From Escherichia coli (GTDB lineage Bacteria > Pseudomonadota > Gammaproteobacteria > Enterobacterales > Enterobacteriaceae), in assembly GCF_029227855.1 (NCBI RefSeq), contig NZ_CP074356.1: a stretch of DNA of 64,000 nt, one strand, 5' to 3'. Every line of letters begins with the position of its first letter. Positions within the stretch are counted from its first letter, which is position 1. Made by a program: the position numbers. Positions 11,601-14,600 of this stretch are shown piece by piece.

Positions 11601-14600
11601 GATGAAGCGCTTAGCGAGCGTCTGGAAGAGTGGATCTGCGGCGAAGGTGCCAGCGCGCAGATCGACACGCAGGGGATTCATTTACTCGCTTGATGCGTCC
11701 TGAATAACGGGCGCAACTACGGGTTTTGCCGGGAAGAGATATTTTCCCAACGTGACCAGTAACACCGCGAAGACAATCACGCCGAGCGCCAGCCATTCAA
11801 TCTTCGACAGCGTCTCTCCGCCCAGTCCCGTACCCAGCAAGACCGCGACCACCGGGTTAACGTAGGCGTAGCTGGTGGCGAGAGCCGGACTGACGTTGCG
11901 GATTAAATACATATAAGCGTTAATGGCGATAATCGAACCAAACAGCGCCAGATAGCCGACCGCAAGGAAGCCTGAAAGGGAAGGGAGCGCCGTCAGTTTT
12001 TCACCCGCAATCATCGACGCGATCATTAACACCACGCCTGCCGCCAGCATCTCAATCGCACCCGCCATCATCCCTACAGGTAAGGTAATGCGCGAGCCAT
12101 AAACCGAGCCAAACGCCCAGCTAATCGAGCCGATTAAAATCAGAATCGCGCCCCACGGATTGCCGCTTAAATTTCCACCGCTATTGAGCATGATGATTCC
12201 GGCAAGCCCAATGGCGATACCCACCCATTCCAGTTTGCGCGTTTTAATGCCAAACAGGCGGCTGAAGCACAGGGTAAAGAGGGGCACGGTTGCAACCACT
12301 ACGGCGGCGATGCCGGAAGGAACATTTTGATGCTCGGCAACCGTCACCATGCCATTACCGACAGCCAATAATAACAGGCCAATCAGTGCGGCATTGAGCA
12401 GCGGACGTAGCGGGGGGAGTTTGTGTCCGCGTAGTAGCAAAAATGCCAGCAATAAAATACCGGCTGCCAGGAATCGAACGCCCGCCATCATTAACGGCGG
12501 CCAGCTTTCCACGCCAATCCGAATGACAAAATAGGTTGAGCCCCAAATGATATACAACGCAAACAGCGCGCCAAAAAGCGGTAACAACTGGCGGAAACGC
12601 ATAATCCCTCACGGTGGAAATAAAAAGGTGGTTCATAGTAAACGTGAAAATCATTCTGCTGGCGAGAGATATAATTGCACTTGATTGTTAAAAAAATGTT
12701 GACCTGTGAAGCAAGTATCAGAGCTGCCGTTTTTGCTTCATACTTACACCCTTCAACAATAAAAATGAGAGGGAATGCTTTTGGCCGGGAGTAGTTTACT
12801 GACGTTGCTCGATGATATCGCCACACTGCTGGACGATATCTCCGTGATGGGCAAACTGGCGGCGAAGAAAACCGCCGGTGTATTAGGGGATGACTTATCG
12901 CTCAATGCGCAACAAGTTTCAGGCGTGCGGGCCAACCGGGAACTTCCCGTGGTCTGGGGCGTGGCGAAAGGATCGCTGATCAATAAAGTGATTCTGGTGC
13001 CGCTGGCGCTGATCATCAGTGCGTTTATCCCGTGGGCGATTACGCCACTGTTGATGATTGGCGGCGCGTTTCTCTGCTTTGAAGGGGTAGAGAAAGTGCT
13101 GCATATGCTGGAGGCGCGTAAACATAAAGAAGATCCGGCGCAGAGTCAGCAGCGTCTGGAGAAGCTGGCGGCGCAGGATCCGCTGAAGTTTGAAAAAGAC
13201 AAAATAAAAGGGGCGATTCGTACCGATTTTATATTGTCTGCGGAAATCGTCGCCATCACGCTGGGGATTGTGGCAGAAGCGCCGTTGCTTAATCAGGTGC
13301 TGGTGCTTTCAGGCATCGCGCTGGTAGTGACCGTGGGCGTCTACGGTCTGGTAGGGGTTATCGTTAAGATTGATGACCTGGGGTATTGGCTGGTGGAAAA
13401 ATCCAGCGCGCTGATGCAGGCATTAGGTAAAGGGTTATTGATCATTGCGCCCTGGTTGATGAAGGCGTTATCGATTGTCGGCACGCTGGCGATGTTCCTC
13501 GTCGGCGGCGGGATTGTGGTACATGGTATTGCGCCGCTGCATCACGCCATTGAACATTTCGCCGGGCAGCAAAGTGCGGTGGTGGCGATGATATTACCGA
13601 CTGTTATAAATCTGATTCTTGGATTTATCATCGGCGGCATCGTGGTGCTGGGAGTGAAAGCAGTAGCGAAAATGCGCGGTCAGGCACATTAATACTCGCA
13701 CTGGCTATTATGCAAAATTCGCCATCTTCAACTAAGGTGAACAAGTTTCACTCGAAAAAAGGAGGCGAGTATGAGCTTTATGGTTAGTGAGGAAGTTACG
13801 GTTAAAGAGGGCGGCCCGCGGATGATTGTCACCGGATACTCCAGCGGTATGGTTGAGTGTCGTTGGTATGACGGTTACGGGGTCAAGCGGGAAGCTTTTC
13901 ATGAAACCGAGCTTGTTCCGGGGGAGGGGAGTCGTTCTGCGGAAGAAGTTTGAAAGGGTATCATTTACACCAGGCCGGATCACATCCGGCCTGGTGTGCC
14001 AATGCCTGCAATGAATGATAGTCGCGTCTTATCATGCCACCATTATAAAATTATCGCTGTTTTGCGGTACGTTATCGCCGGGTTATGCCAGAATCATAAA
14101 AAAGCAGGTTGGGAGTCGTCAGGGTGCAGCACGAGACAAAAATGGAAAACCAGAGCTGGTTGAAAAAACTCGCACGCCGCCTGGGGCCTGGTCATGTCGT
14201 TAATCTCTGCTTTATCGTGGTATTGCTTTTTTCCACCTTGCTCACCTGGCGTGAAGTGGTGGTGCTGGAAGATGCCTATATCTCCAGCCAGCGTAATCAT
14301 CTGGAAAACGTAGCCAACGCGCTCGATAAGCATTTGCAGTATAACGTCGACAAACTGATCTTTTTGCGTAATGGCATGCGCGAAGCTCTCGTAGCGCCAC
14401 TGGATTTCACCTCTCTGCGTAATGCCGTAACCGAGTTCGAACAGCATCGCGACGAGCACGCCTGGCAAATCGAACTCAACCGACGACGCACCCTGCCAGT
14501 CAATGGTGTGTCGGATGCATTAGTCAGCGAGGGGAATCTCCTGTCTCGCGAAAATGAAAGCCTCGACAATGAAATTACCGCTGCACTGGAAGTTGGTTAC

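What the first reader, a model, noticed from the sequence alone, without database searches (positions are those of the whole stretch)
13967..13997. Perfect 14-bp GC-rich hairpin lacking a U-tract between yodC and dgcQ
This is an unusually long perfect inverted repeat with a 3-nt loop immediately after yodC. It has no flanking T-run and does not match the REP consensus. It could be an RNase III or 3'-protective element, a Rho-dependent pause site, or a protein-binding palindrome that separates yodC from dgcQ expression.
Basis: seen in the sequence. Interest (0 to 1): 0.2.

Follow-up and report, generated by a model that had tools for sequence, protein, structure and literature searches.

The report
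Decayed REP hairpin capping yodC mRNA
The perfect hairpin after yodC is real, but it is the worn-down stump of a common E. coli repeat (a REP/BIME element) that marks and probably protects the 3' end of the yodC message, which is an ordinary, already-described kind of element.

Summary
Window 13967-13997 is a perfect 14-bp inverted repeat with a CAC loop (-26.8 kcal/mol). It starts 13 nt after the yodC stop, has no T-run on either strand, and is the longest perfect hairpin in the window. The claim that it is unrelated to REP is wrong by descent. Every other Escherichia lineage sampled, and about 21% of E. coli genomes, carry a two-REP BIME (y REP, linker, z2 REP) at this position. The window hairpin is that y REP minus its 13-nt apex, and the 3' half of the z2 REP remains at 14021-14041. 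It has lost the GTAG tag, the stem mismatch and multicopy status, so it is a fossil REP. In 64 of 74 loci from other genera a canonical intrinsic terminator occupies this site. In K-12, re-analysed Term-seq places a reproducible yodC 3' end 4 nt past the stem, while full-length reads show a yedI-yodC-dgcQ read-through transcript. The best reading is a U-less stem-loop that blocks 3' exonucleases, of the Newbury and Dar-Sorek kind, and a leaky rather than complete boundary. Three stem pairs show compensatory changes. This is a new member of a known kind, of low interest.

The parts
13771..13953 (+). yodC CDS (60 aa, stop TGA at 13951-13953), the upstream gene whose mRNA ends at the hairpin
   Evidence: ORF list. 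RefSeq annotation on identical or near-identical DNA. An EsigmaS ChIP peak is assigned to yodC.
13954..13966 (+). 13-nt spacer between the yodC stop codon and the first paired base
   Evidence: Sequence. The spacer length is the same in all E. coli alleles aligned. It is under the 16-nt limit reported for REP effects on translation (citing Liang et al. 2015).
13967..13980 (+). Left arm ACACCAGGCCGGAT. Bases 13970-13980 (CCAGGCCGGAT) correspond to GTAGGCCGGAT of a y-type REP, with the GTAG tag degenerated.
13981..13983 (+). Loop CAC. It lies where 13 nt of REP apex (GTGGCGCTCACGT in the long allele) are missing, next to the residue of CGC.
   Evidence: Alignments A1 and A2.
13984..13997 (+). 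Right arm ATCCGGCCTGGTGT. Bases 13984-13990 (ATCCGGC) are the y-REP right foot. CTGGTGT is flank sequence that is complementary to the left flank only in E. coli and its closest clade.
13998..14001 (+). 4-nt tail (GCCA here, GCUA in K-12), ending at the position homologous to the mapped yodC RNA 3' end (MG1655 2028140, minus strand)
   Evidence: TRS re-analysis of the Dar & Sorek Term-seq data, PMC10687069 Suppl. Data 2. Coordinate mapping. Transfer to the window strain is by homology.
14021..14041 (+). GTCGCGTCTTATCATGCCACC, the 3' half of the z2-type inverted REP that partners the y REP in the ancestral BIME
   Evidence: Alignment with the FORC_028 long allele and other Escherichia. For comparison, an intact REP elsewhere in the window ends GCTTATCAGGCCTAC (40054-40069).
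14124..15818 (+). dgcQ CDS (RefSeq GTG start), the downstream gene. It is reached by read-through transcripts and contains a Rho termination region at about window 14854.

Best explanation
The hairpin is the fossil of a y-type REP belonging to a BIME-2-like element (y REP, linker, inverted z2 REP). In the genus Escherichia this element occupies the site where other Enterobacteriaceae have the yodC intrinsic terminator. In most E. coli the y REP lost its 13-nt apex and the z2 REP lost its 5' half. What is left is a 14-bp perfect stem made of the REP foot plus complementary flanks. When yodC is transcribed, from its own sigma-S-bound promoter or from yedI, the RNA folds into a -24 to -27 kcal/mol stem-loop with no U-tract. 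RNA polymerase is not released efficiently there. Some transcripts continue into dgcQ. Others end further downstream, by Rho or by cleavage, and are trimmed back 3'-to-5' by exonucleases until the stem stops them. That leaves a discrete yodC 3' end 4 nt past the stem. Shown here: the structure, the REP/BIME descent, the replacement of a terminator, the mapped 3' end, the read-through transcript, and the compensatory stem changes. Inferred: that the 3' end arises by exonuclease trimming after downstream, partly Rho-dependent, termination, and that this stabilises yodC mRNA.
For: Structure and non-randomness. No U-tract or terminator-like site.

REP descent:
- The long allele at the same position (L001) is ACACCCGACCGGATGTGGCGCTCACGTCGCATCCGGTCGGGTGT, then a linker, then TGCCTGATGCGACGCTATCGCGTCTTATCATGCCTAC.
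- That 131-nt stretch matches at least 39 places per E. coli genome, and is at least 99% identical at this locus in 1114 genomes.
- All six non-coli Escherichia lineages carry one or two y+z2 BIME copies here, some with an intact GTAG.
- The window core CCAGGCCGGAT-CAC-ATCCGGCC equals the window's own y REPs (GTAGGCCGGAT...CGCATCCGGCA) with the central 13 nt removed; 18 of 22 positions match.

Terminator replacement: 64 of 74 non-Escherichia yodC loci have a hairpin plus T-run starting a median of 6 nt after the stop, mostly with dgcQ downstream.

RNA 3' end: Term-seq peak 2028138-2028146, dominant position 2028140(-), signal 0.94, p = 0, 0 and 4e-9, class 'Primary' for yodC. The hairpin is at 2028144-2028174.

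Read-through and downstream Rho: a b1958|b1957|b1956 operon, and a Rho region inside dgcQ at 2027287(-), score 2.67.

Pairing is maintained: three of 14 pairs change on both sides across alleles. The C-G to U.G (K-12) to U-A (EC21-type, up to 80 genomes) series keeps pairing on the yodC-sense RNA strand only. The covariation score is 0.090 against 0.035 in shuffles, 0/500.
Against: - The curated Term-seq list of Adams et al. 2021 (LB OD 0.4 and 2.0, and M63) has no 3' end at 20280xx-20283xx. Neither the one RNAtag-seq sheet held (Barsheshet) nor the stored part of the TRS Suppl. Data 3 tables has one. The 3' end therefore rests on one dataset of three replicates.
- There is no clear C-rich, G-poor rut-like segment just downstream: C/G is 1.12 in the first 80 nt, within background.
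- The Rho signal lies about 850 nt away, inside dgcQ, and is modest.
- Compensatory changes in a palindrome can also arise without selection, by template-switch (quasipalindrome) mutation.
- The alignment behind the covariation count is small (11 sequences) and the sequences were chosen by me, not sampled at random.
- No stability or half-life measurement was available.
Confidence: 0.65

Rival explanations
1. It is a neutral fossil. The hairpin is only debris of a decaying BIME. Its perfect symmetry comes from hairpin-templated (quasipalindrome or template-switch) mutation and from apex deletion, both typical of palindromic DNA. Any RNA 3' end at it is an unselected physical by-product.
For: BIME copy number and integrity at this locus vary freely among Escherichia, from two copies down to the degenerate form in the window. 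A second REP in L009 and L011 also lost its apex. O157 and RMDEC465 tolerate a mismatch at pair 2. The E. coli right flank differs from E. whittamii by 2 substitutions and 1 insertion, all of which increase complementarity, as a single templated event would. About 21% of E. coli keep the long form, so neither form is required.
Against: In all 5364 E. coli genomes that carry the locus, some stable stem (short or long) remains 13 nt after the stop. No allele lacking a stem was seen. The K-12 intermediate is U.G on the sense RNA rather than a disruptive change. A discrete 3' end is mapped there. This rival concerns selection, not mechanism, and is compatible with the barrier effect.
Confidence: 0.25
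2. It is a translational down-regulator of yodC. [quoted passage not shown]
For: The spacer is 13 nt in every E. coli allele. The under-16-nt rule is reported in PMC12306157, citing Liang et al. 2015. The stem is very stable.
Against: There are no data on YodC tagging or stalling. In other genera the intrinsic terminator hairpin is even closer to the stop (median 6 nt), so close spacing is ancestral and need not be regulatory. The original paper could not be read here.
Confidence: 0.15
3. It is a weak factor-independent terminator or hairpin-dependent pause site that releases RNA polymerase a few nucleotides after the stem despite the missing U-tract.
For: The 3' end is discrete and close to the stem. 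The site is positionally equivalent to the intrinsic terminator of other genera. In L006 and L008 the same REP is followed by TGTTTT and scores as terminator-like.
Against: The tail is GCCAAUGCC, with one U in 9 nt. The scan finds no terminator. A 3' end 4 nt from the stem is nearer than I would expect for intrinsic release inside a 7-8-nt U-tract (the U-tract length is; the release distance is my own background knowledge). A full-length read-through transcript exists.
Confidence: 0.1
4. It has a DNA-level role, as a symmetric protein-binding site, a cruciform, or a substrate for TnpA-REP, gyrase or IHF, as described for intact BIMEs. Alternatively, it is an RNase III processing site in the polycistronic RNA.
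For: It is a perfect palindrome with two symmetric Dcm motifs, CCAGG and CCTGG. Intact BIMEs bind several proteins (PMC3333891).
Against: TnpA-REP needs both GTAG and the stem mismatch, and both are absent here. The Dcm motifs are absent from the long allele and from L005. The sequence changes while the pairing is kept, which argues against a sequence-specific site. The U.G intermediate keeps pairing only in the sense RNA: the K-12 C-to-T change gives U.G on the sense RNA but an A.C mismatch on the antisense strand. A 14-bp stem is shorter than the roughly two helical turns usual for RNase III substrates (background knowledge).
Confidence: 0.05

Closest known systems
U-less protective 3' stem-loops of Rho-dependent transcripts (Dar & Sorek 2018, PMC6061677) and REP mRNA stabilisers (Newbury et al. 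1987, as cited there)
   Same: It is a stable GC-rich stem-loop with no U-tract just after a stop codon. A steady-state RNA 3' end lies a few nucleotides past the stem. It is of REP origin. Transcription continues beyond it.
   Different: Rho dependence and exonuclease trimming have not been shown for this transcript. The stem is a truncated, perfectly paired REP stump rather than an intact REP.
E. coli y-type REP within a BIME-2 (Bachellier et al.; Ton-Hoang et al. 2012, PMC3333891)
   Same: It is positionally orthologous to a y REP paired with an inverted z2 REP. It retains the REP foot AGGCCGGAT/ATCCGGC. The locus shows the strain-to-strain BIME copy-number variation typical of BIME-2.
   Different: It has no GTAG, no stem mismatch and no apex. 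It is single-copy at BLAST level. The stem is extended by non-REP flanks (ACACC/GGTGT). It is presumably not a TnpA-REP substrate.
Intrinsic terminator of yodC in Salmonella, Citrobacter, Enterobacter, Kosakonia and others (AAAACGCCCGG-loop-CCGGGCGTTTT)
   Same: It has the same position (starting within about 20 nt of the yodC stop in most loci, median 6 nt), the same neighbours (yodC upstream, dgcQ downstream) and a GC-rich hairpin.
   Different: The sequences are unrelated and there is no T-run. It is an example of terminator turnover to a U-less hairpin.
REPs within 15 nt of a stop codon that reduce translation (Liang, Rudd & Deutscher 2015, as summarised in PMC12306157)
   Same: It is a REP-derived hairpin 13 nt from the stop.
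   Different: No evidence of stalling or tagging exists for YodC. This is only a distance criterion.

Membership tests
E. coli REP (y type) / BIME-2 | 30-40-nt imperfect palindrome with the family consensus (PMC3333891) | tested here: not met
   It is a 31-nt perfect palindrome. Only 22 nt (13970-13991) align to y REPs, 18 of 22 matching, and the 13-nt apex is missing.
E. coli REP (y type) / BIME-2 | Conserved GTAG tetranucleotide 5' of the stem foot | tested here: not met
   The window has CCAG where y REPs have GTAG. An intact GTAG is seen only in the second BIME copy of L009 and L011.
E. coli REP (y type) / BIME-2 | Two-base mismatch in the stem, required for TnpA-REP binding and cleavage | tested here: not met
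   All 14 pairs are Watson-Crick. The mismatch region lies in the deleted apex.
E. coli REP (y type) / BIME-2 | High copy number in the genome | tested here: not met
   The 31-nt and 41-nt queries hit one locus per genome; the two 'places' are the two strands of the palindrome. There is no other copy in the window. The long allele, in contrast, hits at least 39 places per genome.
E. coli REP (y type) / BIME-2 | Descent from, and positional orthology with, a REP paired with an inverted REP | tested here: met
   Alignments A1 and A2 and the IGR dissection show y REP, linker and z2 iREP at the same position in FORC_028 and in six Escherichia lineages. The z2 3' half is retained at 14021-14041.
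Intrinsic (Rho-independent) terminator | GC-rich stem-loop | tested here: met
   14 bp, -26.8 kcal/mol.
Intrinsic (Rho-independent) terminator | U-rich tract of 7-8 nt immediately 3' of the stem | tested here: not met
   The tail is GCCAATGCC on the + strand and AAATGATAC on the - strand. The scan found 0 sites.
Protective 3' stem-loop of Rho-dependent transcripts (Dar & Sorek 2018) | Steady-state RNA 3' end immediately downstream of a stable stem-loop without a U-tract | tested here: met
   In K-12 the Term-seq dominant 3' end at 2028140(-) is 4 nt past the stem. It is not listed in the Adams 2021 curated set.
Protective 3' stem-loop of Rho-dependent transcripts (Dar & Sorek 2018) | Read-through increases with bicyclomycin (Rho dependence) | tested here: inconclusive
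   The only nearby Rho region is inside dgcQ at 2027287(-), score 2.67, p = 9e-5. There is no rut-like C>G skew just downstream. The Dar & Sorek per-gene table is not held.
Protective 3' stem-loop of Rho-dependent transcripts (Dar & Sorek 2018) | Longer 3' tails in pnp, rnb or rnr mutants | not testable with these tools
   This needs the raw RNA-seq data of the exonuclease mutants.
REP translational down-regulators (Liang et al. 2015) | [quoted passage not shown] | tested here: met
   The spacer is 13 nt. The criterion is as reported in PMC12306157.
REP translational down-regulators (Liang et al. 2015) | Ribosome stalling, mRNA cleavage and tmRNA tagging of the upstream protein | not testable with these tools
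   No data on YodC were found.
RNase III substrate | About two helical turns (about 20 bp) of dsRNA (background knowledge) | tested here: not met
   The short allele has 14 bp. The long allele reaches 20 bp including 2 G.U pairs.

The most novel reading that the evidence does not exclude
The stump is not mere debris. It is an exapted, selected element: after a BIME displaced the ancestral yodC intrinsic terminator in Escherichia, the REP foot was remodelled by apex deletion and palindrome-perfecting changes into a minimal U-less stem. Placed 13 nt from the stop, that stem sets yodC mRNA stability and translation, and sets how much transcription leaks into the diguanylate cyclase gene dgcQ. It would then be a tunable, strain-polymorphic (short versus long allele) coupling between a sigma-S small protein and c-di-GMP and cellulose control.
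Probability: 0.15. Interest if true: 0.4.

Novelty: new member of a known kind. Interest (0 to 1): 0.15.

Why it matters
It matters modestly, in three ways.

First, it explains a conspicuous unannotated palindrome in the model genome. It also shows that a REP can stop matching the consensus and still be a REP by descent. Consensus-based REP catalogues therefore miss such stumps.

Second, it gives a clean natural example of terminator turnover: an intrinsic terminator in most Enterobacteriaceae, a BIME in Escherichia, and a U-less protective stem in most E. coli.

Third, the two common E. coli alleles, 14-bp and 20-bp stems with or without a second REP, form a ready-made natural experiment on how 3' structures set read-through into dgcQ.

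None of this changes current understanding of REP or 3'-end biology.

Tried and rejected
- Rfam scan of 13500-14400 at E up to 10: only chance-level hits far below the gathering scores.
- Search for other copies of the arm in the window with up to 3 mismatches: no more than chance.
- Terminator and promoter scan: no terminator.
- MG1655 annotation in the collection: no REP or repeat features are shown at this locus or at a second stretch I chose as a probable REP site without confirming a REP in it. Absence of annotation is therefore uninformative.
- Supplements of Dar & Sorek 2018 are not held.
- Liang et al. 2015 and Liang & Deutscher 2016 are not held, and the Atkins 2016 review gave no usable passage. 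The 16-nt rule is therefore cited second-hand from PMC12306157.
- The RepRanger supplements do not list this element.
- The Adams 2021 curated Term-seq data have no 3' end here.
- C/G skew for a rut site just downstream is inconclusive.
- I considered an RNase III site and rejected it on stem length.
- I considered a TnpA-REP substrate and rejected it because both required features are missing.
- I considered a role for the outer pairing TATCATT/AATGATA (13959-13965 with 14014-20). I set it aside because AATGATA is created by the deletion junction, is absent from the long allele, and lies beyond the mapped 3' end.
- The metagenome and viral scans, the protein searches and the structure tools were not used because they do not bear on the question.
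Full report
**1.

Window 13967-13980 (ACACCAGGCCGGAT) and 13984-13997 (ATCCGGCCTGGTGT) are perfectly complementary around a CAC loop.

- As RNA it folds at -26.8 kcal/mol on either strand (z about -7.5, 0 of 200 shuffles as good).
- It is the longest perfect short-loop inverted repeat in the 64-kb window. Thirty dinucleotide shuffles of the window never produced a perfect stem of 12 bp or more.
- The yodC stop codon ends at 13953, so the stem starts 13 nt later.
- Neither strand has a T-run, and the terminator scan found nothing.
- Rfam has no family for it, and the arm is not repeated elsewhere in the window.
- The DNA is E. coli. The 451-bp surrounding stretch is found in 5364 of 5426 complete genomes, and RefSeq annotates it as yedI, yodC and dgcQ.

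**2. What it is by descent**

The spread of E. coli hits showed a second allele about 67 bp longer. Aligning it (FORC_028, L001) with the window and K-12 gave the key result.

At the same position the long allele reads ACACCCGACCGGAT-GTGGCGCTCACGT-CGCATCCGGTCGGGTGT. A 23-nt linker follows, then TGCCTGATGCGACGCTATCGCGTCTTATCATGCCTAC. These are a y-type REP and an inverted z2-type REP, which together form a BIME.

- That 131-nt stretch matches at least 39 places per E. coli genome (the per-record limit was reached). It is at least 99% identical at this locus in 1114 genomes.
- The short hairpin is single-copy and is present in 4146 genomes.
- The window's own intact y REPs (955-990 and 40104-40139) read GTAGGCCGGAT-[13 nt]-CGCATCCGGCA. 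Removing their central 13 nt gives the window core CCAGGCCGGAT-CAC-ATCCGGCC, matching at 18 of 22 positions.
- The 3' half of the z2 REP survives at 14021-14041 (GTCGCGTCTTATCATGCCACC).

Compared with the long allele, the short allele therefore has a 13-nt apex deletion in the y REP and a 52-nt deletion that removes most of the z2 REP.

**3. Polarity and age**

Eighty yodC loci from species-representative genomes were retrieved.

- All six non-coli Escherichia lineages carry full-length y+z2 BIMEs right after yodC: E. albertii, E. whittamii and four further lineages (two named only Escherichia sp., two deposited as E. coli). Four have one copy and two have two tandem copies, the second of these with an intact GTAG. 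The long form is therefore ancestral and the 31-nt hairpin is derived.
- The second z2 REP of L009 and L011 has also lost its apex, so apex deletion recurs at this locus.
- Outside Escherichia, 64 of 74 loci have a stable hairpin followed by a T-run, starting a median of 6 nt after the yodC stop. The typical sequence is AAAACGCCCGG-loop-CCGGGCGTTTT. dgcQ usually lies 50-290 nt downstream.
- The BIME therefore sits where an intrinsic terminator used to be. In two Escherichia lineages the REP is still followed by TGTTTT. In E. coli that flank reads CTGGTGTG and pairs with the upstream ACACCAG.

**4. Membership**

Ton-Hoang et al. describe E. coli REPs as 30-40-nt imperfect palindromes with a conserved 5' GTAG. 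They occur as y, z1 or z2 types and are mostly paired in BIMEs. TnpA-REP requires both the GTAG and the two-base stem mismatch (PMC3333891).

The window hairpin fails on GTAG, mismatch, apex and copy number. It passes only on positional descent. It should be described as REP-derived, not as a REP, and it is presumably immobile.

**5. Is the pairing maintained?**

Variants are shown:

| Allele | Left arm / right arm |
|---|---|
| Window | ACACCAGG.. / ..CCTGGTGT |
| K-12 | ACATCAGG.. / ..CCTGGTGT |
| EC21-type | ACATCAGG.. / ..CCTGATGT |
| Escherichia sp. L005 | ACACCAGA.. / ..TCTGGTGT |
| FORC_028 long allele | ACACCCGA.. / ..TCGGGTGT |

- K-12 has U.G at pair 4. This pairs on the yodC-sense RNA and would be A.C on the antisense strand.
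- The EC21-type has U-A at pair 4 and is an exact full-length match in at least 12 genomes, up to 80.
- L005 has A-U at pair 8.
- FORC_028 has C-G at pair 6 and A-U at pair 8.

On an 11-sequence alignment, 3 of 14 pairs change on both sides and 94% of cells pair. The covariation score is 0.090 against 0.035 in shuffles (0 of 500), and it exceeds all slid registers. All variants keep -23.7 to -26.8 kcal/mol, and the long allele reaches -40.

Three caveats apply. The sample is small and was chosen by me. The sequences are related. Palindromes can acquire 'compensatory' changes in one step by hairpin-templated template switching (background knowledge). The E. coli right flank differs from that of E. 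whittamii by two substitutions and one insertion, all towards complementarity, which fits such an event. O157 and RMDEC465 carry a mismatch at pair 2.

**6. What it does: experimental data**

(a) The TRS paper re-analysed the Dar & Sorek Term-seq libraries (BW25113, LB, exponential phase). It lists a 3' terminus on the minus strand at 2028138-2028146, dominant position 2028140, signal 0.94, p = 0, 0 and 4e-9, class 'Primary', gene yodC (PMC10687069 Suppl. Data 2). In NC_000913.3 the hairpin is at 2028144-2028174. The RNA therefore ends ...CCUGGUGU-GCUA, 4 nt past the stem.

(b) SMRT-Cappable-seq reports a full-length transcript b1958|b1957|b1956 from a TSS at 2029389 (PMC6131387). Polymerase can therefore cross the hairpin.

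(c) Adams et al. list no curated 3' end at this site in three conditions. They do list a Rho termination region inside dgcQ at 2027287(-), score 2.67 (PMC7815308).

(d) An EsigmaS ChIP peak is assigned to yodC. Converted from the older genome coordinates by my own estimate of the offset, it lies just upstream of the yodC start (PMC4447067).

(e) Dar & Sorek showed that Rho-dependent transcripts end, at steady state, immediately downstream of stable stem-loops lacking U-tracts. These stem-loops block PNPase and RNase II, 24% of them are annotated REPs, and terminators can switch type simply by changing the downstream U content (PMC6061677).

**7. Best explanation**

The hairpin is a REP-derived, U-less 3' stem-loop. 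It does not efficiently release polymerase. It stops 3'-to-5' exonucleases and so defines, and probably stabilises, the yodC mRNA 3' end. A fraction of transcription continues into dgcQ.

The structure, the descent, the 3' end and the read-through are shown. The trimming route, the Rho involvement and the stabilising effect are inferred. I found no rut-like C>G skew just downstream, and the 3' end is supported by one dataset only. I put this explanation at about 0.65.

**8. Rivals**

- An unselected fossil whose symmetry is mutational (0.25). This is compatible with the same physical effect.
- A translational down-regulator. The 13-nt spacer is under the 16-nt limit reported for REPs by Liang et al., as summarised in PMC12306157. 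However, hairpins are even closer to the stop in other genera (0.15, not exclusive).
- A weak intrinsic terminator or pause site (0.1).
- A DNA-level protein site or an RNase III site (0.05 together). These are disfavoured by the loss of the TnpA-REP determinants, by sequence change with retained pairing, by the sense-strand-specific U.G, and by the 14-bp length.

**9. Novelty and score**

The class is well known, and the 3' end already sits in a published table. What is added here is the identification of this unannotated palindrome as an apex-deleted y REP, the two-allele polymorphism in E. coli, and the terminator-to-BIME-to-stump history. It is a new member of a known kind, with interest about 0.15.

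Noticed in passing
window 14081-14094: GGTTATGCCAGAAT, about 30 nt upstream of the dgcQ start, is conserved in Salmonella and Citrobacter loci (GGTTATGCCAGGAT / GGTTATGCCAGAAT) although the rest of the intergenic region differs. It is probably a dgcQ promoter or regulatory motif.
   Followed up: no
L009 yodC-dgcQ IGR positions 208-233; L011 IGR positions 207-232: The second z2 REP of the tandem BIME has also lost its apex (TGCCTGATGCG|TCTTATCATGG). Apex deletion of REP hairpins is therefore recurrent at this locus and not unique to the window hairpin.
   Followed up: partly
window 13970-13974 and 13990-13994: The hairpin carries two symmetric Dcm methylation motifs (CCAGG / CCTGG). They are absent from the long allele and from Escherichia sp. 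L005, so they are probably incidental.
   Followed up: partly
L001 (FORC_028) 641-740, versus window 14021-14060: The long allele contains a roughly 35-nt direct duplication (GCGTCTTATCATGCC..C.TTATAAAA.TATCG, twice), typical of BIME-2 tandem amplification. About 21% of E. coli genomes (1114 at 99% identity or more) carry this form and about 76% (4146) the short form.
   Followed up: partly
window 955-990 and 40040-40139: These are bona fide REPs: a single y REP at 955-990, and a BIME (a z1-like iREP at 40040-40072 plus a y REP at 40104-40139). They were used as internal references.
   Followed up: partly
window 54233-54258; also 6823-6854, 53524-53555, 32398-32422, 17518-17543, 16888-16912: Other perfect 10-12-bp hairpins. 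54233-54258 (AAAAAACCTGCTCCGGCAGGTTTTTT) looks like a bidirectional intrinsic terminator.
   Followed up: no
L024, L025, L029, L030, L031, L034, L043, L045, L053 (mostly Citrobacter freundii-complex species): Here yodC is followed by different DNA (…CTCTCAACCATTAGTTATATTTATCATTT…), with no dgcQ detected downstream and, except in L034, no terminator-like hairpin by my scan. The yodC-dgcQ linkage is broken in this group.
   Followed up: no
L006 and L008, about 20-60 nt after the yodC stop: In these two Escherichia lineages the y REP is immediately followed by TGTTTT and flanked upstream by an A-run. The REP plus T-run therefore scores as terminator-like, a possible intermediate between an intrinsic terminator and a U-less stem.
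   Followed up: partly
about window 14854 (MG1655 2027287, minus strand), inside dgcQ: Adams et al. 2021 list a Rho termination region within the dgcQ ORF (Rho score 2.67, p = 9e-5). A mild C>G stretch lies just upstream, at about 14668-14768.
   Followed up: partly
window 13964-13966: The window strain has ATCATTTACACC where most E. coli have ATCATTAACACC. Only 3 genomes match the 41-nt query at 99% identity or more.
   Followed up: no
window 14109 versus 14124: The longest ORF for dgcQ starts at TTG 14109 (569 aa), whereas RefSeq annotates the GTG at 14124 (564 aa). The true start was not examined.
   Followed up: no
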